Notes: generated by a model not told the origin, from the letters alone. Numbered from the stretch's first letter, positions 45,633 to 64,000 are shown. The stretch: 64,000 nt of DNA from Elusimicrobia bacterium ADurb.Bin231 (GCA_002069855.1 MWCF01000007.1:2585-66584); one strand, 5' to 3'. Program-made: numbers and translations.

Positions 45633-45705
<73 letters not shown>

Positions 45706-57448: not shown

Positions 57449-58504
57449 TTATACCTCTCTGATCTTTCTTATTATTTCATCCGCCATTTCGCTCGTTTTC
57501 GCAGTGCCTCCAAGATCATATGTAACAACCCTTTTTTCAAATATAACCTGGGCAACAGCATTTTCCAATTTCTTGGCAGCGTCCTTTTCTCCTATGTAAT
57601 CAAGCATAAGTGCCCCGGACAAAATCATAGCCACAGGATTAACCTTATTCATACCTTTATATTTCGGAGCGGAACCGTGAACCGGTTCAAACAAAGCGAT
57701 ATCCTCGCCGATATTAGCTCCCGGAGCAACCCCCAATCCGCCGACAAGTCCAGCGCAAAGATCGGAAATGATATCCCCGTACAAATTCGGAAGCACCAAA
57801 ACGTCATACAATTCAGGCTTCTGGACCAACTGCATGCACATATTGTCTATAAGCCGTTCCTCATATTCTATATCAGGATAATCTTTGGCAACTGAACGTG
57901 CTACTTCATAAAAAAGGCCGTCGCTAAACTTCATTATATTGGCCTTAGTGACGGCAGTTACCTTTTTTCTATTATTTTTTTGGGCATATTCAAATGCGAA
58001 TTTAACAATTTTTTCCGTAGCTGTTCTTGAAATGGACTTTATGCTTATTGCGGAATCGTTTCTTATTCTATTATTCGATAATTTTATTATTTCGGCAGTT
58101 TCACGGCTCCCTATTTGAAACTCCACGCCAGCATACAGATCTTCTGTATTCTCCCTCACCACTACAAGATCTATATTGGTATATTTAGATTTTACGCCTT
58201 CATAATATTTACACGGTCTAAGACACGCGTATAAATCCAATTCTTTACGAAGAGCAACATTGACGGAACGAAATCCGCTTCCTATAGGAGTAGTAATAGG
58301 TCCCTTAATAGCCACCTTGTTTTTTCTTATTGAATCCAGCACTGTCGCCGGCAAAGGAGTGCCGTATTTTTCCATTACATCGCTGCCCGCTTCAGCAATT
58401 TCCCAATCAATCTCAACTCCGGTTGAATCCAAAACTCTGCGGGTCGCTTCTGATATCTCCGGACCAGTACCATCTCCAGGTATCAAAGTTATTTTATATA
58501 TCAT
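57449..58504 (-). CDS. Isocitrate/isopropylmalate dehydrogenase family enzyme (likely NAD(P)-dependent isocitrate dehydrogenase, short type).
   Basis: 351 aa. [14 protein letters not shown]-terminus. [10 protein letters not shown] motif. Confidence 0.7.
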
Positions 58505-58539
58505 AATTAAAGAATTTTATAATTTTTTTATCTTTTAGT

Positions 58540-58700
58540 CAAGGGGGCGCTCGGGAATTCCTTCTCGGAACCGACTCGTCCCAGAGGGCGGTCTCTCGCT
58601 CAGTCGGCTGAATGAATTAAGCCGACTTCCGCGAAGTTCCGTTCAGGGACACCCTCGCTTCTGCATTAAGAAAGGTGAAAAACGCAGTCATAAAGTATCA
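58540..58700. other. Short GC-rich (about 55-60% GC), dyad-rich intergenic island of unknown nature at the junction between the core genes and the restriction island.
   Basis: Composition contrasts sharply with the AT-rich surroundings. Hairpin gtcggc-[tgaatgaattaa]-gccgac (58603-58626), flanking gtcccag/cagggac and gaggg/ccctc complementarities. EcoRI-like palindrome ggaattcc. Confidence 0.3.
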
Positions 58701-58751
58701 TAACCGGCCCAATACTTTTATGACTGAAGTGAAGAATCACGTAGCTACCAT

Positions 58752-61049
58752 TTAACGGTGGGAAAAATTGAAATCTTTATAGAGATTTTTCTGGAAATTA
58801 AAAAATGTGGAACGGATTTTTTCAACTCCGCCGAGAGTTAGTTCGGCATCGGAAATGGCTTGATATTTTAAATTAAGCAATTGCGGCAACTTTTCTTCGT
58901 CAAGTTCCTCCACTCCCTTTTCCACATATTTAGTAAGTACAAATTCTAAAAACTCTTTTTGTTTGTCATCTAATCCGCTGAAAATCGCAGGACGGGCTTT
59001 TATTGCTCTCTCTATTCTTGATATCGGTTTTGTGGCAAAAGCGATATATGATAGCACATCAAATAAATCACTCTTCTCTGCATCTATCAATTTCTGTAAT
59101 GTTTCCAGTTCTTCCTTGTCATAACCGCGTTCTGCAATTTTTTCTAAAAACGCTTTTCTTGTTACCGGGTTTGACCAAATTTTACGCAGTTCGGCCTCAT
59201 TTTTGAAAAATTCCGGTAATGTTCCAAACATATTATGCAGGAATTCTTCTGCGGAAATCGGTTTGCCATCAGCGCTCCAAAACGAGGTAGAAATCATATG
59301 TTGAATTTCACGCTCTTTCCCGTCCCGAAGTTTTATCTTCAATATTTTTGCTGTGTAGGGTCTTGGACTTGAATCTCCAGGTTCCTTAACCATTCCCGGC
59401 TTCTTCCCAGTGGTCATATCTATGGGCTCGCCGTCCCATTCAGGGTCAAAAAAATGCTTATAAGCGTCAACAAAGTCGAGGATGGTGAAAAACTCTTTAC
59501 CGTCAAAAAGCCGTGTTCCGCGGCCGATTATTTGTTTAAACTCTATAATAGTATTGATGGGACGCATCAGGACGATGTTGCGGATATTGCGAGCATCTAC
59601 TCCAGTAGATAGTTTTTGTGAAGTCGTTAAAATCGTTGGGATCATCTTTTCGTTGTCACGGAACTCATCCAAAAACTGGTCGCCGCGAGCGCCTTCATTC
59701 GCAGTAACGCGCACACAATAATTCGGTTCTGAACTATCCTTGAATTGGTTGATTAAGTCCCTCACGGCAAGCGCATGGTCTTGCGTAGCACAAAAAATAA
59801 TCGTTTTCTCTTTCTGATTGATTTCGTCAAGCACTATCCGCACTCTCTTGGCTTCCCGTTCTTTTATTTCAATAATTTTATTGAAATCCGGTTCTTCGTA
59901 AACTTTCCCCTCTTCAACCTCGCCTTCAATTATCTGGTCATCGGATGTATAAACATAGTTATCAAGTGTGGTTTGAATTCGTTTTACCTTAAAGGGCGTT
60001 AAAAATCCGTCATTAACGCCTTCCTTTAAGGAATAAATATAAACCGGTTCGCCGAAATATCTGTAAGTGTCAATATTGTCTTTTCTTTTTGGCGTTGCCG
60101 TAAGTCCGAGTTGCACAGCAGGAGAAAAATATTCAAGAATATCCCGCCAGTTTGACTCGTCGTTTGCACCTCCGCGATGGCATTCGTCAATAATTACAAA
60201 ATCGAAAAAATCCCGTGGGTACTCGCCAAAATACGGAGTATCATTGGGCCCGCTCATAAATGTTTGGTAAATTGTAAAAAATACGCTACCTGTAGTTGGC
60301 ACACTGCCTTTCTTCCTTATATCGGCCGGACTAATGCGCACCAAGGCATCTTCCGGGAAACCGGAAAAATCATTAAACGCTTGATTTGCCAGAAAATTCC
60401 TGTCGGATAAAAATAGAATTCTCGGCTGGCGACCTCCGTCCCTGTTCAAATTCCATCTTGCCTGATAAAGTTTCCACGAAATTTGAAATGCGATGAATGT
60501 TTTTCCGGTTCCGGTTGCCAGAGTAAGCAAAATGCGGTTTTTTCCCTTTGCTATTGCGTCTAATGCGTTATTTATAGCGATTTCCTGGTAATACCGAGGT
60601 TTTTTGCCTGCTGATTCTCCATAAGGTATGGCTATAAATTTTTCCTGCCATTTGTTATACCCGGAAAATGTCTTTTGCCACAAATCATCCGGGGTCGGAA
60701 ATTTATCAACATATCTTTCAGCTCCGGTTTCCATTGAAATCTCATAGATCTCTTTGCCGTTGGTGGAATAGGTATACGCTATGCCTAATTTATCTGCGTA
60801 GGCTTTGGCTTGAGTTACGCCTTCGGTTGCCCGCAGCCCTTCCTGCTTGGCTTCTATAACAGCAAGTTTTTGATTTTTATAAACAAGAATATAGTCGGCA
60901 ATTTCCGGCTTCCCGCGCATGCCGCCTGTTTGAATTCTGCCTTCTGTAAAGCGGTACTCACGAAGTATTTTTGTACCTTCTACTTCTCCCCAGCCGCTCG
61001 CTTTGAGTTTCGGGTCAATGTATTCAGCCCTGGTTTCCGCTTCGTTCAT
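58752..61049 (-). CDS. hsdR: Type I restriction enzyme R subunit (short, EcoEI/type IB-like form).
   Basis: MNEAETRAEYIDPKLKASGWG HsdR N-terminal domain. Walker A GTGKT. DEAH box IIDECHRG. C-terminal EcoEI-R-like region. 765 aa. Confidence 0.85.
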   Translation of the reverse strand: MNEAETRAEYIDPKLKASGWGEVEGTKILREYRFTEGRIQTGGMRGKPEIADYILVYKNQKLAVIEAKQEGLRATEGVTQAKAYADKLGIAYTYSTNGKEIYEISMETGAERYVDKFPTPDDLWQKTFSGYNKWQEKFIAIPYGESAGKKPRYYQEIAINNALDAIAKGKNRILLTLATGTGKTFIAFQISWKLYQARWNLNRDGGRQPRILFLSDRNFLANQAFNDFSGFPEDALVRISPADIRKKGSVPTTGSVFFTIYQTFMSGPNDTPYFGEYPRDFFDFVIIDECHRGGANDESNWRDILEYFSPAVQLGLTATPKRKDNIDTYRYFGEPVYIYSLKEGVNDGFLTPFKVKRIQTTLDNYVYTSDDQIIEGEVEEGKVYEEPDFNKIIEIKEREAKRVRIVLDEINQKEKTIIFCATQDHALAVRDLINQFKDSSEPNYCVRVTANEGARGDQFLDEFRDNEKMIPTILTTSQKLSTGVDARNIRNIVLMRPINTIIEFKQIIGRGTRLFDGKEFFTILDFVDAYKHFFDPEWDGEPIDMTTGKKPGMVKEPGDSSPRPYTAKILKIKLRDGKEREIQHMISTSFWSADGKPISAEEFLHNMFGTLPEFFKNEAELRKIWSNPVTRKAFLEKIAERGYDKEELETLQKLIDAEKSDLFDVLSYIAFATKPISRIERAIKARPAIFSGLDDKQKEFLEFVLTKYVEKGVEELDEEKLPQLLNLKYQAISDAELTLGGVEKIRSTFFNFQKNLYKDFNFSHR

Positions 61050-61072
61050 TTACACCCCATAACATATTTTTT

Positions 61073-61097
61073 AACTACCGAGAAATCCTCGGTAGTT
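61073..61097. other. Perfect 10-bp stem / 5-nt loop hairpin in the hsdS-hsdR intergenic spacer.
   Basis: aactaccgag-aaatc-ctcggtagtt. The T-run follows on the plus strand only, so it is not an intrinsic terminator for the minus-strand operon. Confidence 0.5.
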
Positions 61098-61107
61098 GCC
61101 GCTTTTT

Positions 61108-62322
61108 TCATAATTTCCCCGCGAATGCTTTTTTAAGGACGGATTTTTTCAATTCATCCAAGTCATCCAGTTTTTTCTGATAAATTTGCTCGAGCTTTTT
61201 GGTTTCTCCAGAAAGCGCATCGAGTTTGTTAACGATTAATTGTTGCTCTGTTGGACTAGGGATATGCATAGCCGAGTTTTTTGCCTTAATAATAGTAAAT
61301 GTTCCAACGGTAGCGCCATTGGAACTATTAATATATTTTTTAAATGACGGGGAATTAAAAAAATACTCTACAAAACGGGAGTTTATATTCCCTTTGGTTT
61401 TTAACCAAATAATGTTTCCATCTTTAAAATAAAATTTATCTTTTTGTTTTACAACATAACATATTCCAAGTGTACCAACCCCTGTAACCATGATATCGCC
61501 TTCTTTTGGAATACCGTATTTTTCACTATATATCTTATACATTCCCTCTGAGATGAACAATTCATTTTTTACATATCCTTGTTTAGCAAGTTTTACTATT
61601 TCTCTGGCTCTATAAAAAGGTACTCCTTTATTTTTCCACTCTGATTTAAAAACTCGTTTGCTTGATGTAATTTCAAAAAAATCACTTAACGTTTTGCTTT
61701 CCCAACCCTTGCCGGGATTCGCAAAAACACTCTGCAAATACGATTCAAAAAGCTCGCGGGCATTTTTCAGATTCTTTTCAGTATTTTCTCTTGCCTTTGA
61801 AATCCCCGCAAAAACCTCATCCAAAATTTTCACAATATGGCGCTGCTCTTGGAGCGATTGCGGATACGAAATTTCAATTTCTTTGAGTTTTGCTTTATTT
61901 AATGTTTTCCCTTTTATTTTAACATCCCCTTGTGCGGCAGTATGCCAGTCGAAGAAACTTAAAAAATAGTATAAATAATTTTTTGATATTTCTTTCTCAT
62001 TTTTTATCGTTAATGCTGCAATTGCTTCGTTTGTATATAAATCTTTGCCAGCAAAAGCAAGCCGGCCAAGAGTCAATTTGAAGCTTACCAATAATGTTCC
62101 TTTTTTGACAATTTTACCTAATTGGGCACCCTCATCCGATATATATTCTTTGCTATCCAATACAATATTGTCAGTCGTGTTCAAAAGATCCGCAATAGAA
62201 AGCCAAACATTGTCACCTCTCCTATCTGGGTCCCAATATTTATGGTTTCCTCTATAAGGCGTTTTTCCAAGCTCAATTGTACATAAATCACCAAGTTTTT
62301 TTGTTTGCCAATTATTATTCAT
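61108..62322 (-). CDS. hsdS: Type I restriction-modification specificity subunit.
   Basis: 404 aa. Two target-recognition half-domains separated and followed by conserved coiled-coil spacers (LKNARELFESYLQSVFA ... LEQIYQKKLDDLDELKKSVLKKAF). Confidence 0.85.
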   Translation of the reverse strand: MNNNWQTKKLGDLCTIELGKTPYRGNHKYWDPDRRGDNVWLSIADLLNTTDNIVLDSKEYISDEGAQLGKIVKKGTLLVSFKLTLGRLAFAGKDLYTNEAIAALTIKNEKEISKNYLYYFLSFFDWHTAAQGDVKIKGKTLNKAKLKEIEISYPQSLQEQRHIVKILDEVFAGISKARENTEKNLKNARELFESYLQSVFANPGKGWESKTLSDFFEITSSKRVFKSEWKNKGVPFYRAREIVKLAKQGYVKNELFISEGMYKIYSEKYGIPKEGDIMVTGVGTLGICYVVKQKDKFYFKDGNIIWLKTKGNINSRFVEYFFNSPSFKKYINSSNGATVGTFTIIKAKNSAMHIPSPTEQQLIVNKLDALSGETKKLEQIYQKKLDDLDELKKSVLKKAFAGKL

Positions 62323-62851
62323 GTAATTTAGATACTACACTAAAGCTCAATCCAATTTTTTTGTAAAATCTTTCAAGATTTAAATGTTCAATACCATAAT
62401 GTGAACAGACTGAAGGAATTTTATCTTGCCTTTTCTCACTTTCTTCGCTGATCACATAAATTATTTCTAGCCCATTTCTATATTTTTCTTCTATCGCTAT
62501 AGCAATTAACCAAGGATCTGCTTGTTCCTTTTCGTACTCAGGGTCAATTAATCTGGGATATTTTTTAATAATATCTGCTACTATTTTTGCCTGACTGTAT
62601 TTTTGTGTTTCAAAGTAATCTCTTAAAGGCATAACACTTTTTGCTAAGGCATCTGGTTGCCTTGAAGTAGTAGCAATTTCCTCGTAAACAAACCTATGAG
62701 AAATCAATTGCCCGGATTTAAACATTGCTTCTAGTTTTTCCCAAATAAGTTCTCTTAATGACTGCGGATAAAAGCGAAATATCCGTATTAGGGCACTTGC
62801 ATCAATATAATATTTCTCATAATTTGAATTATCGATTATCTGCATTCTCAT
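62315..62851 (-). CDS. PIN-like (DUF4411-type) putative nuclease.
   Basis: 178 aa. PIN-type acidic motifs: YYIDASALI (beta1 Asp) and ADPWLIAIAIEE. Overlaps both neighbours by 4-8 nt. Confidence 0.55.
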   Translation of the reverse strand: MRMQIIDNSNYEKYYIDASALIRIFRFYPQSLRELIWEKLEAMFKSGQLISHRFVYEEIATTSRQPDALAKSVMPLRDYFETQKYSQAKIVADIIKKYPRLIDPEYEKEQADPWLIAIAIEEKYRNGLEIIYVISEESEKRQDKIPSVCSHYGIEHLNLERFYKKIGLSFSVVSKLHE

Positions 62852-63969
62852 AAGTGAATAAAATGATTTATTTTTAACCCCAATATATCGGCCGCGCTAC
62901 TATAAGATATCCGATTGATTTTTGACGCTTCAATGACTTTATTGAATAAATATTGACCTCTTGAATTTATGCTTTTTCGCATTGGATTTAAATTAGGAAT
63001 AAAATTCTGATTTGGTTTGACTTTCGAGCGAATATCATTAAGCAATTTGAAAAACGATGAATCAGAAATAAGTTTTAAAGTGTGCATTCTTCGAAGATAG
63101 ACTTCACTACTTATTCTCAGCCACTTCGCCTTTTTGTAGATTTCATCACTATTATCCATCAAAGTCACAACTTTAGCAGGAACTAAAAAACTTCCAGCAA
63201 AAGAATTGCACTCAAACTCGAGTCTTTCATCTTTTTTTACCTTTTCAGGGTAGCAAATAGAGGATTGATTTTTTAGGATGTGCCCAAGTTCATGTATCAG
63301 GGTAAATATTTTTCCTGTTTGAGCGTGATGAATGCTATTAACCGCTATACAATATGGCATTTCTTCAGCGTAACAAAATCCCTGAATTTCTTCTACAGGC
63401 ATTTTGAACTGAAAAACAGGAACTCCTAATTTATATTCTATTAAATTTCTTAATAAGTTATAAAAATCAAAAGAACTATTTGTTTTTAACTGATCTTCTA
63501 TAGATAAACCCATAGTGTTTCTAAGCCACTCCGCAATATTTTCATCGTCAATCGTCTTGATGTGTGGATATTTTATTTTTAATTCTCCTTGCCATTTATA
63601 TTTTATTTCATAATATCTTTTATCATTCAGTTCCATTAGCAATGTTTTATACCGGCTTGCCCGGCGAATAGCAAGAGAGGTGTCGTTCGACAAGTTGGAA
63701 TTGAATAAACTTAAATTTCTGTGGTCTGAAGGTCTTCTTGATTTTTTTGGTATATCAGGTAGAAAAAAGCAGGATATTTGTCTTTTATAAAGTTTTGCTA
63801 ATACTTTTAAATCCGTAAACGGGATATTCTTTCCATTATTTTCCCAGTTACTATAAGTTTCAAGACTAATTTGTAATTCAGAAGCAATATCATTGGCTCT
63901 AATCTGCATTTCTTCCCGGGCCCAAATCAACATCTGTGGGTTAATATCTATCAGATTATCTTTCGTCAT
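62848..63969 (-). CDS. XRE-family HTH fused to ImmA/IrrE-type (COG2856) zinc metallopeptidase.
   Basis: N-terminal HTH (IRANDIASELQISLETYSNWENNGKNIP). HEXXH in LIHELGHIL. 373 aa. Confidence 0.8.
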   Translation of the reverse strand: MTKDNLIDINPQMLIWAREEMQIRANDIASELQISLETYSNWENNGKNIPFTDLKVLAKLYKRQISCFFLPDIPKKSRRPSDHRNLSLFNSNLSNDTSLAIRRASRYKTLLMELNDKRYYEIKYKWQGELKIKYPHIKTIDDENIAEWLRNTMGLSIEDQLKTNSSFDFYNLLRNLIEYKLGVPVFQFKMPVEEIQGFCYAEEMPYCIAVNSIHHAQTGKIFTLIHELGHILKNQSSICYPEKVKKDERLEFECNSFAGSFLVPAKVVTLMDNSDEIYKKAKWLRISSEVYLRRMHTLKLISDSSFFKLLNDIRSKVKPNQNFIPNLNPMRKSINSRGQYLFNKVIEASKINRISYSSAADILGLKINHFIHL

Positions 63970-64000
63970 ATTTTTCCCTCACCAATTCAAACCTTTTCAT

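What the first reader, a model, noticed from the sequence alone, without database searches (positions are those of the whole stretch)
58752..63969. Type I restriction island with an HTH-ImmA peptidase + PIN-like module wedged upstream of hsdS; hsdM not in window
Read in the direction of transcription, the locus is HTH-ImmA(HEXXH) then PIN-like DUF4411-type protein then hsdS then hsdR. All neighbours have overlapping or near-overlapping stops and starts, which implies one transcript. The expected hsdM is absent from the window and would lie just beyond position 64000. An XRE-HTH/COG2856 zinc peptidase paired with a small nuclease-like protein is the architecture of predicted toxin-antitoxin or abortive-infection modules. 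Here it would be co-regulated with a type IB-like restriction enzyme, suggesting a layered defence unit, or a specificity/addiction accessory to the restriction-modification system. Whether the PIN-like protein is a toxin held in check by the ImmA protease/repressor has not been tested for this family.
Basis: partly seen in the sequence, partly recalled or inferred. Interest (0 to 1): 0.55.

Follow-up and report, generated by a model that had tools for sequence, protein, structure and literature searches.

The report
VapBC52-type toxin-antitoxin inside restriction operon
A two-gene toxin-antitoxin cassette (a self-cleaving HTH zinc-peptidase antitoxin plus a DUF4411 PIN RNase toxin) sits inside a type I restriction operon of an uncultured Elusimicrobia bacterium; both the cassette type and this kind of embedding are already described, so it is a new example and not a new system.

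Summary
Four tightly packed minus-strand genes encode an HTH + M78/ImmA peptidase (373 aa), a DUF4411 PIN-like protein (178 aa), a complete HsdS and a type IB (EcoAI-family) HsdR. No hsdM is in the window. One open frame runs off the right edge, and its tail resembles an HsdM C-terminus.

PDB 9VZY/9VZZ and a June 2026 NAR paper characterise the homologous M. tuberculosis VapBC52 pair:
- The DUF4411 toxin is a tRNase.
- The large antitoxin binds it 1:2.
- ssDNA triggers antitoxin self-cleavage through a cysteine-switch peptidase.
- Toxin overexpression protects against phage D29.

Every residue named for that mechanism is conserved in the window proteins.

In 112 related loci the two genes are always paired (81/81 testable). 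Type I R-M genes directly abut the pair in 13/77 loci (17%), and 19/77 (25%) have one somewhere in the locus. The pair occupies different slots (M/S, S/R, after R), and embedded copies fall in at least 8 separate clades mixed with standalone copies. It is therefore an autonomous mobile cassette that repeatedly lands in R-M operons, as PrrC, DarTG2, tvrAT and other PIN toxins do. Verdict: new member of a known kind, of modest interest.

The parts
62848..63969 (-). Antitoxin: VapB52/RmrA-like protein, 373 aa. It has an N-terminal Xre-type HTH (about residues 11-69), a linker carrying the D82-H83-R84-N85-L86 motif (the counterpart of the VapB52 'FR' self-cleavage motif), an IrrE/ImmA/CapP-like zinc peptidase (H226-E227-x-x-H230, E251, cysteine-switch C239) and a C-terminal helical bundle (about 303-372).
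   Evidence: Pfam HTH_3 + Peptidase_M78. PADLOC RmrA full length, E 1.7e-19. Profile match to PDB 9vzy_A at E 2.9e-34 over positions 9-368, with the residue-level alignment. H226, E227, H230, C239, E251 and R84 are invariant in 56/56 homologues. AF2 model pLDDT 91.9, closest folds CapP 7t5t and PprI-ssDNA 8sln.
62315..62851 (-). Toxin: DUF4411 PIN-like nuclease, 178 aa, VapC52-like. Predicted catalytic acids are D17, E58, D112 (in the ADPWL motif) and E137.
61108..62322 (-). hsdS: type I specificity subunit, 404 aa, with two target-recognition domains. Its start overlaps the toxin's stop by 8 nt.
   Evidence: Pfam Methylase_S, two stretches, E 8e-35. PADLOC Specificity_I E 9e-57.
58752..61049 (-). 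hsdR: type IB (EcoAI/EcoEI family) restriction subunit, 765 aa.
   Evidence: NCBIfam restrict_EcoAI equivalog, 824 bits (cutoff 550), full length. Pfam ResIII, EcoEI_R_C, HSDR_N_2 and Helicase_C.
63956..64000 (-). 3' end of an upstream ORF that runs off the window (...MKRFELVREKYDER*) and overlaps the antitoxin start by 14 nt. It is probably the C-terminus of hsdM.
   Evidence: It is the only open frame at the edge. The MKR[LF][DE] core matches HsdM C-termini of the 484-aa family that partners this HsdR family (L014). Synteny in L002, L045, L080 and L094. Inferred, not shown.
61072..61098 (.). 11-bp-stem hairpin in the 58-nt hsdS-hsdR spacer. On the transcribed (minus) strand it is followed by A's, not U's, so it is not an obvious intrinsic terminator for the operon.
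   Evidence: Its function was not tested.

Best explanation
The two genes at 62315-63969 are an autonomous, horizontally mobile type II toxin-antitoxin / abortive-infection cassette of the VapBC52 type (Rosmer-like). It has landed in the hsdM/hsdS slot of a type IB restriction-modification operon. Proposed mechanism, by homology to M. tuberculosis VapBC52: one antitoxin molecule holds a dimer of the PIN toxin. The antitoxin's N-terminal HTH-like domain grips the toxin and its C-terminal helical domain blocks the toxin's active site. The antitoxin's zinc peptidase is kept off by Cys239 sitting on the zinc (the 'cysteine switch'). Single-stranded or fragmented DNA, which appears during phage infection or DNA damage, displaces that loop. 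The peptidase then cuts its own linker near D82-H83-R84, the N-terminal domain falls away, and the freed toxin cleaves tRNAs (host and/or phage). Translation stops and the infection is aborted. Embedding in the restriction operon gives co-expression and co-transfer with a first-line defence, but the cassette does not need the restriction enzyme to work. Shown here: gene order and overlaps, domain and fold identities, conservation of every mechanistic residue, strict pairing of the two genes, and variable, repeated association with R-M. Inferred from the homologue: stoichiometry, the ssDNA trigger, self-cleavage, the tRNA target and phage defence.
For: Homology to the solved complex 9VZY: antitoxin profile E 2.9e-34 full length and toxin profile E 1.1e-13, with single-sequence alignments. 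Residue mapping: H226/E227/H230 = VapB52 H216/E217/H220; C239 = C229, with the same +9 spacing from the second His; E251 = E245; R84 = R76 of the FR motif. All are 56/56 invariant, and position 83 is F/Y/H/N. Toxin D17/E58/D112/E137 = VapC52 D6/E48/D99/E117. PIN fold confirmed. Peptidase fold closest to CapP and ssDNA-bound PprI. Experimental mechanism of VapBC52: PMC13273310. PADLOC RmrA hits, with Rosmer established as a defence system using a Zn-peptidase antitoxin. Autonomy: ImmA is directly upstream of DUF4411 in 81/81 testable loci across many bacterial phyla and archaea. Among loci whose flanks could be classified, 33 have no R-M gene next to the pair and 20 do. Slots vary (M/S, S/R, after R). 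R-M-linked copies lie in at least 8 clades interleaved with standalone ones, and L086 and L094 (distance 0.15) sit in different slots. DNA similarity between the window and its closest relative covers only the two-gene cassette plus about 35 nt of hsdS. GC falls from about 0.40 to 0.33 over 61-64 kb.
Against: Sequence identity to VapBC52 is low (single-sequence E 9.7e-14 for the antitoxin and 4e-4 for the toxin), so the trigger and RNA target may differ. The window protein has His, not Phe, before the conserved Arg of the putative cleavage motif. The phage protection reported for VapC52 came from toxin overexpression, and co-expressing the antitoxin abolished it, so defence by the intact pair at native levels is not yet shown even for the homologue. 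The PADLOC library has no toxin model that matches this DUF4411 protein. Nothing here tests expression, toxicity or defence in this organism. The strong enrichment next to type I R-M (17-25% of loci) leaves room for some functional interplay.
Confidence: 0.72

Rival explanations
1. Restriction-coupled guard or second line. The cassette is functionally wired to the type I enzyme. Either restriction and subsequent degradation of phage DNA produce the ssDNA or DNA fragments that switch on the antitoxin's peptidase, or, as with PrrC in EcoprrI, inhibition of the restriction complex by a phage anti-restriction protein releases the toxin.
For: The pair abuts type I R-M genes in 13/77 loci and shares a locus with them in 19/77. 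It sits inside the operon with overlapping reading frames, not merely nearby. The homologous antitoxin is activated by ssDNA. PrrC and PARIS are established R-M guardians (PMC12707154). Deleting vapC21 next to hsdM/hsdS.1 in M. tuberculosis alters their transcript levels.
Against: Most classified loci carry the pair with no R-M gene nearby (33 against 20, and the 20 is an upper estimate). Positions in the operon vary. Close relatives switch between R-M and non-R-M contexts (L005 against the window/L002; L018 against L055/L056). VapBC52 itself (Rv2514c/15c) was characterised with no reference to an R-M partner. There is no sign of an R-M-specific subfamily in the tree.
Confidence: 0.13
2. Addiction module. 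The pair mainly stabilises the restriction island (or the mobile segment carrying hsdS) by post-segregational killing, with no role in sensing phage.
For: Classical TA behaviour. TA modules are proposed to stabilise defence islands (PMC5499597). In L019/L066 the cassette travels with an hsdS fragment into a housekeeping context. The closest relative's locus is decaying around an intact cassette, with hsdS cut by an IS1595 transposase and a Bro-N insertion.
Against: Type I R-M systems are themselves weakly addictive at most, and the pneumococcal tvrAT pair inside a type I locus showed no addiction phenotype (PMC6265443). An invariant ligand-gated self-cleaving peptidase (Cys switch, HEXXH) points to signal sensing and not simple antitoxin instability. 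Homologous and Rosmer systems give phage phenotypes.
Confidence: 0.1
3. Regulator of the restriction operon. The HTH-peptidase acts like a controller (C) protein or an ImmR/ImmA-type switch that sets hsdS/hsdR expression, and the PIN protein is a cofactor and not a toxin.
For: There is an Xre-type HTH at the N-terminus. The VapB52 N-terminal domain is structurally similar to the R-M controller protein C.Csp231I. Small repressors such as RptR do control type I islands (PMC12255303).
Against: The pair is strictly conserved as a unit in loci with no R-M genes. The PIN catalytic acids are invariant. In VapB52 the HTH-like domain binds the toxin. No promoter-like signal above background lies between the cassette and hsdS; the reading frames overlap.
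Confidence: 0.05

Closest known systems
M. tuberculosis VapBC52 (Rv2515c/Rv2514c; PDB 9VZY, 9VZZ; Singh et al., NAR 2026, PMC13273310)
   Same: Same two-gene order (large antitoxin first, DUF4411 toxin second). Same three-part antitoxin: HTH-like N-domain, IrrE/CapP-like HEXXH peptidase, helical C-domain. The same zinc ligands and cysteine-switch residue sit at identical spacing. There is a conserved Arg in the linker motif and four PIN acidic residues. Full-length profile matches.
   Different: Low sequence identity. The window antitoxin is shorter (373 against 415 aa) and has H-R instead of F-R in the linker motif. The host is an anaerobic-digester Elusimicrobia MAG. The cassette is embedded in a type IB R-M operon, whereas the VapBC52 paper mentions no R-M context. 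Trigger, target tRNAs and defence are untested here.
RosmerTA (RmrT/RmrA) anti-phage toxin-antitoxin systems (Millman et al. 2022; Ernits et al. 2023, PMC10440598)
   Same: The antitoxin is an HTH + ImmA/M78 zinc peptidase, and the window protein hits 12 PADLOC RmrA models, the best full length at E 1.7e-19. NetFlax links this antitoxin node to PIN-like toxins.
   Different: The tested Rosmer toxins are other families, for example a membrane-depolarising toxin. No PADLOC toxin model matches the DUF4411 protein, so a standard defence finder built on that library would probably not call this pair.
DUF4411.1 + HTH-DUF955 'three-component' TA prediction and PIN-like toxins in type I R-M operons (Matelska et al. 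2017, PMC5499597)
   Same: Exactly this architecture was predicted. The same paper notes PIN-type TA modules transcriptionally coupled to hsdM/hsdS/hsdR, with arrangements not conserved between related species.
   Different: That work was purely computational and did not quantify the DUF4411 pair's R-M linkage. This analysis adds counts (81/81 pairing; 17-25% R-M linkage; at least 8 independent clades).
Toxin or defence genes embedded in type I R-M loci: PrrC in EcoprrI, DarTG2 in the EPEC RptR island, tvrAT (Phd-Doc) in the pneumococcal tvr locus, vapBC21 next to hsdM/hsdS.1 in M. tuberculosis
   Same: An RNA- or DNA-targeting toxin module is inserted between hsd genes and co-oriented with them. 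The hsdS/hsdR junction is described as a recombination hotspot for defence genes.
   Different: The toxin and antitoxin families are different. Only PrrC has a demonstrated functional dependence on its R-M partner; none is shown here.
CapP/CapH (CBASS regulator) and IrrE/PprI-DdrO, ImmA-ImmR
   Same: Same peptidase fold and cysteine-switch/ssDNA-activation logic. CapP (7t5t) and ssDNA-bound PprI (8sln) are the top structural matches.
   Different: Those proteases cleave a separate HTH repressor to switch on transcription. Here, as in VapB52, protease and substrate are fused in one protein and the output is release of a toxin.

Membership tests
VapBC52-type TA (HTH-IrrE peptidase antitoxin + DUF4411 toxin) | The toxin belongs to DUF4411 and has a PIN fold | tested here: met
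   Pfam PF14367 E 4.3e-19. The AF2 model matches VapC/PIN structures. Profile hit to 9vzy_D and 9vzz_A.
VapBC52-type TA (HTH-IrrE peptidase antitoxin + DUF4411 toxin) | Four catalytic acidic residues of the PIN site (VapC52 D6, E48, D99, E117) | tested here: met
   D17, E58 and D112 are invariant, and position 137 is E/D in 21/21 sequences. The alignment to 9vzy_D places D17, E58 and D112 on the VapC52 residues; the fourth is offset by 2-3 positions in the pairwise alignment, so it is assigned from the family alignment.
VapBC52-type TA (HTH-IrrE peptidase antitoxin + DUF4411 toxin) | Large three-domain antitoxin encoded immediately upstream, homologous over its full length to VapB52 | tested here: met
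   Profile E 2.9e-34 covering 9-368 of 371 positions against 9vzy_A residues 2-380. The AF2 model shows HTH, linker, peptidase and C-terminal helices. The gene is adjacent and overlapping in 81/81 loci.
VapBC52-type TA (HTH-IrrE peptidase antitoxin + DUF4411 toxin) | Zinc site HEXXH + Glu plus the cysteine-switch Cys | tested here: met
   H226, E227, H230, E251 and C239 are invariant in 56/56, with the same spacing as VapB52 H216, H220, E245 and C229.
VapBC52-type TA (HTH-IrrE peptidase antitoxin + DUF4411 toxin) | Conserved 'FR' motif at the N-domain/peptidase linker (the probable self-cleavage site) | tested here: inconclusive
   R84 is invariant and embedded in D-x-R-N-L. The preceding residue is F/Y in 41/56 sequences but His in the window protein. 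Cleavage itself cannot be tested here.
VapBC52-type TA (HTH-IrrE peptidase antitoxin + DUF4411 toxin) | Toxicity neutralised by the antitoxin, ssDNA-induced self-cleavage, tRNA cleavage | not testable with these tools
   Needs expression and biochemical assays.
RosmerTA (PADLOC/DefenseFinder definition) | RmrA antitoxin (HTH + Zn peptidase) | tested here: met
   12 RmrA models hit, the best at E 1.7e-19 over residues 9-368.
RosmerTA (PADLOC/DefenseFinder definition) | Adjacent gene matching a catalogued RmrT toxin model | tested here: not met
   No PADLOC family matched the 178-aa protein at E <= 0.01. So it works like a Rosmer system but is not a member as that library defines it.
Type IB restriction-modification system (EcoAI/EcoEI family) | HsdR of the EcoAI family | tested here: met
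   NCBIfam NF046051, 824 bits against a cutoff of 550, full length. Pfam EcoEI_R_C.
Type IB restriction-modification system (EcoAI/EcoEI family) | HsdS with two target-recognition domains | tested here: met
   Two Methylase_S stretches and full-length matches to Specificity_I models.
Type IB restriction-modification system (EcoAI/EcoEI family) | HsdM methyltransferase in the same operon | tested here: inconclusive
   Absent from the window. An open frame with an HsdM-like tail runs off the edge. The source contig could not be retrieved.
PrrC-type R-M guardian | Toxin activity controlled by the state of the partner restriction enzyme; obligatory co-occurrence with R-M | tested here: not met
   Co-occurrence is not obligatory: 33 classified loci lack R-M neighbours, and the slot varies. 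Control by the enzyme cannot be tested here.

The most novel reading that the evidence does not exclude
The recurrent insertion of this ssDNA-sensing toxin-antitoxin pair inside type I restriction operons is functional. DNA fragments or ssDNA produced when the restriction enzyme (with host exonucleases) attacks incoming phage DNA would be the natural ligand that flips the antitoxin's cysteine switch. Restriction would then itself arm an abortive-infection back-up whenever it is engaged but failing. That would be a direct molecular hand-off between a first-line and a second-line defence.
Probability: 0.12. Interest if true: 0.6.

Novelty: new member of a known kind. Interest (0 to 1): 0.22.

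Why it matters
This is a clean, intact example from a candidate-phylum bacterium (Elusimicrobia) of a defence-type toxin-antitoxin pair whose mechanism was worked out only in mid-2026 in M. tuberculosis. The comparative data show three things. The VapBC52 architecture is widespread across bacterial phyla and archaea. Its mechanistic residues are universally conserved. It repeatedly inserts into the two inter-gene slots of type I restriction operons. That supports the view of hsd operons as docking sites for defence cargo. It also flags a gap in one defence-annotation library, because the PADLOC models scanned here do not recognise the DUF4411 toxin. It does not reveal a new kind of system.

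Tried and rejected
1. Retrieving the sequence beyond position 64000. Exact-protein look-ups failed for ImmA, HsdR, HsdS and P0022. The DUF4411 look-up returned only a 2.4-kb Logan contig identical to the window, and a reported 20-50 kb contig was never delivered. A metagenome scan with the ImmA protein found nothing.

2. Finding the source MAG's HsdM by homology. The HsdM family is so conserved (85-91% identity in the top 120) that the ADurb.Bin231 protein did not appear in the list, and no listed protein carries the window-edge tail.

3. Promoter/terminator scan of 58300-64000. It was no better than shuffled sequence, so it neither supports nor refutes a single transcript.

4. Rfam search of the GC-rich hsdR-icd spacer. 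No match.

5. NCBIfam 'spr1629 family antitoxin'. 31.7 bits against a cutoff of 335, so rejected as a membership.

6. Foldseek of the antitoxin model could not show 9VZY because that library ends in April 2026. The sequence-based PDB search was what revealed it.

7. The idea that the R-M-embedded copies form a dedicated subfamily was rejected by the tree.

8. The hairpin in the hsdS-hsdR spacer as an operon terminator was rejected, because the T-run is on the non-transcribed strand.

Full report
**What is in the sequence.**
- **62848-63969 (373 aa):** Pfam HTH_3 at residues 16-63 and Peptidase_M78/IrrE at 180-274, E 1.5e-13.
- **62315-62851 (178 aa):** a full-length DUF4411 match, E 4.3e-19.
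- **61108-62322 (404 aa):** an HsdS with two target-recognition domains.
- **58752-61049 (765 aa):** an HsdR that passes the NCBIfam EcoAI/FtnUII equivalog model (824 bits, cutoff 550) and carries the EcoEI_R_C domain, so it is type IB.

The antitoxin stop overlaps the toxin start by 4 nt (ATGA). The toxin stop overlaps the hsdS start by 8 nt. hsdS and hsdR are 58 nt apart. No hsdM-like sequence exists anywhere in the 64 kb. Downstream of hsdR lie housekeeping genes (icd, ndk, ackA, rpmF, plsX, fabH). GC falls from about 0.40 to 0.33 across hsdS and the two-gene module. The 373-aa protein is 100% identical to a protein of 'Elusimicrobia bacterium ADurb.Bin231' on a 68,227-bp contig, so the window is nearly that whole contig.

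**The missing hsdM.** Only one reading frame is open at the window's right edge. It ends ...MKRFELVREKYDER* and overlaps the antitoxin start by 14 nt. I could not obtain the extra 4.2 kb of the source contig. Four pieces of indirect evidence favour hsdM:
- The closest relative of the module, in Elusimicrobia HGW-1 (76.6% DNA identity over only the two genes plus about 35 nt of hsdS), reads hsdM - BroN - [44-aa remnant resembling an hsdM C-terminus] - antitoxin - toxin - hsdS fragment - IS1595 transposase.
- That 484-aa HsdM family partners the same HsdR family in L014.
- Its C-termini read ...EEMK[RK]LD.E..., sharing the MKR[LF][DE] core with the window tail.
- In L045, L080 and L094, hsdM overlaps the antitoxin start just as the unknown ORF does here.

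I rate 'hsdM directly upstream' as probable but not shown.

**The antitoxin.** Across 56 homologues, H226, E227, H230 (the HEXXH motif), E251, C239 and R84 are invariant. The model (pLDDT 91.9) shows an N-terminal HTH, an extended linker, a mixed alpha/beta peptidase and a C-terminal helical bundle. Its best structural matches in a library that ends in April 2026 are CapP and ssDNA-bound PprI/IrrE. PADLOC assigns it to RmrA, the antitoxin of the Rosmer defence system (best E 1.7e-19, full length).

**Already solved and tested.** A profile search of all PDB sequences found entry 9VZY. It is a complex of an 'HTH cro/C1-type domain-containing protein' (E 2.9e-34, full length) with a 'DUF4411 family protein' (E 1.1e-13). 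Entry 9VZZ is the DUF4411 protein alone. These belong to Singh et al., NAR June 2026 (PMC13273310), on M. tuberculosis VapBC52, Rv2515c/Rv2514c. The paper reports the following:
- VapC52 is a PIN tRNase with catalytic residues D6, E48, D99 and E117.
- VapB52 binds a VapC52 dimer 1:2. Its N-terminal domain grips the toxin and its C-terminal domain occludes the active site.
- The middle domain is an IrrE/CapP-like peptidase whose zinc is held by H216, H220, E245 and a 'cysteine switch', C229.
- ssDNA triggers HEXXH-dependent self-cleavage that removes the N-terminal domain, near a conserved F75-R76 motif.
- VapC52 cleaves host tRNAs and phage D29 tRNAs.
- Overexpressed VapC52 protects M. smegmatis from D29, but co-expressing VapB52 abolishes that protection.

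Using the alignment, the window residues map one-to-one onto VapB52:
- H226/E227/H230 correspond to H216/E217/H220.
- C239 corresponds to C229, nine residues after the second His in both proteins.
- E251 corresponds to E245.
- R84 corresponds to R76.

The residue before R84 is F or Y in 41 of 56 homologues and His in the window protein. The statement that the toxin/antitoxin relationship 'has not been tested for this family' is therefore no longer true. The architecture had also been predicted computationally in 2017 (DUF4411.1 with HTH-DUF955; PMC5499597) and linked to Rosmer-type systems in 2023 (PMC10440598).

**Is the link to restriction-modification real, and what kind of link is it?** I collected 29 loci from species-representative genomes and 80 from metagenomes, plus context look-ups, giving 112 non-redundant loci. 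I scanned them with iterated HMMs.
- **Pairing:** an antitoxin gene lies directly upstream of DUF4411 in 81 of 81 loci with enough upstream sequence. These span many bacterial phyla and some archaea.
- **R-M linkage:** a type I R-M gene is present in 19 of 77 loci with at least 1 kb of flank (25%). One directly abuts the pair in 13 of 77 (17%). Among loci with at least 3 kb on both sides the figures are 7/28 and 6/28.

That is far above what a random gene would show. My rough expectation from typical genome content is well under 1%; this is an inference, not a computed control. But the position varies:
- **Between hsdM and hsdS:** the window, L002, L045/L046, L080, L094, and possibly L036 (only hsdS downstream is visible on its 2.1-kb contig).
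- **Between hsdS and hsdR:** L020, L055, L056, and probably L012, L060, L086 and L090.
- **After hsdR:** L014.

Other neighbours are type IIG enzymes, a short pAgo, a Shedu-like gene, an AAA_15 ATPase and a Macro-domain protein, which is typical defence-island company.

In a tree of 82 antitoxins, R-M-embedded copies fall in at least eight clades interleaved with standalone copies. L086 and L094 (distance 0.15) occupy different slots. The sister of the window/L002 clade (L005) has no R-M genes.

The simplest reading is that this is an autonomous mobile cassette that repeatedly lands in the inter-gene slots of hsd operons. The same behaviour is documented for PrrC, DarTG2 (whose authors call the hsdS/hsdR junction a recombination hotspot for defence genes), tvrAT, vapBC21 and other PIN modules.

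**Mechanism and rivals.** My best explanation (confidence 0.72) is a VapBC52-type, ligand-gated toxin-antitoxin/abortive-infection cassette that works on its own and is merely co-expressed and co-transferred with the type IB system. The rivals are:
- a restriction-coupled guard, or a module armed by restriction-generated ssDNA (0.13);
- an addiction module that stabilises the island (0.10);
- a regulator of hsd expression (0.05).

The first rival is the most interesting reading not excluded by the data. It is disfavoured by the many standalone copies and by the variable positions. It is not refuted by the enrichment, or by the fact that the homologous sensor responds to ssDNA.

**Limits.** All mechanistic steps beyond sequence and fold conservation are inferred from a distant homologue. 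Defence by the intact pair at native expression has not been shown even for VapBC52. The single-transcript claim, the hsdM claim and any phenotype in this organism remain untested.

**Verdict.** This is a new member of a known kind, and its interest is modest (0.22). Its value lies in the comparative census and in a clear example of defence cargo docking in a type I operon.

Noticed in passing
window 61072-61098: A perfect 11-bp-stem hairpin (TAACTACCGAG...CTCGGTAGTTG) fills much of the 58-nt hsdS-hsdR spacer. Its T-run is on the plus strand and there are A-runs on both sides on the transcribed strand. It could be an RNA processing or stability element, an attenuator, or a terminator for antisense transcription.
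   Followed up: partly
window 58505-58751 (hairpin about 58603-58626): The 247-nt spacer between the hsdR stop and the icd start is unusually GC-rich for this genome and contains a GTCGGC...GCCGAC hairpin. A sigma-70-like promoter match lies at 58542-58514, just upstream of icd. There was no Rfam match even at E <= 1.
   Followed up: partly
L002/L003/L004 6423-11806 (Elusimicrobia HGW-Elusimicrobia-1): The closest relative's R-M locus is decaying around an intact cassette. A Bro-N gene sits between hsdM and the antitoxin and is followed by a 44-aa ORF that resembles a duplicated hsdM C-terminus. hsdS is truncated to 105 aa by an IS1595-family transposase, and no hsdR is present.
   Followed up: partly
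L014 897-10507 (Candidatus Portnoybacteria MAG): The same HsdM and HsdR families as the window's system, but here the hsdM/hsdS slot holds a Shedu-like (SduA_C) gene plus two unknown ORFs, and the antitoxin-toxin pair sits after hsdR. So both slots of one operon type carry different defence cargo.
   Followed up: partly
L045 1850-2461, L046 666-1277, L080 1853-2485, L094 2160-2678: In the loci where the pair sits between hsdM and hsdS, an extra 170-210-aa ORF with no Pfam match lies between the toxin and hsdS. The three versions did not look alike on inspection of their N-termini (not aligned). They may be further unknown cargo or a third component.
   Followed up: partly
L019 and L066 8529-10507: The cassette is preceded by a 110-aa hsdS fragment but is otherwise surrounded by housekeeping genes (arginase, deoxyhypusine synthase, a TonB receptor). 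This suggests the cassette can move together with a piece of hsdS.
   Followed up: no
L086 vs L094: Two antitoxins at a distance of only 0.15 sit in different slots of type I operons: after hsdS in L086, and between hsdM and hsdS in L094. This implies recent relocation or hsd gene shuffling around the cassette.
   Followed up: no
L031 1-7478; L096 881-4549; L035 8849-12218: Other defence-type neighbours of the pair are a 418-aa Piwi-domain (short pAgo) gene plus an hsdS (L031), a Macro-domain protein followed by an N6-methylase (L096), and an AAA_15/AAA_21 ATPase (L035).
   Followed up: partly
window 45633-45705: A single tRNA gene on the minus strand is the only Rfam family hit in the whole window. 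GC skew is negative throughout the 64 kb, and every gene identified in the inspected part (53.5-64 kb) lies on the minus strand.
   Followed up: no
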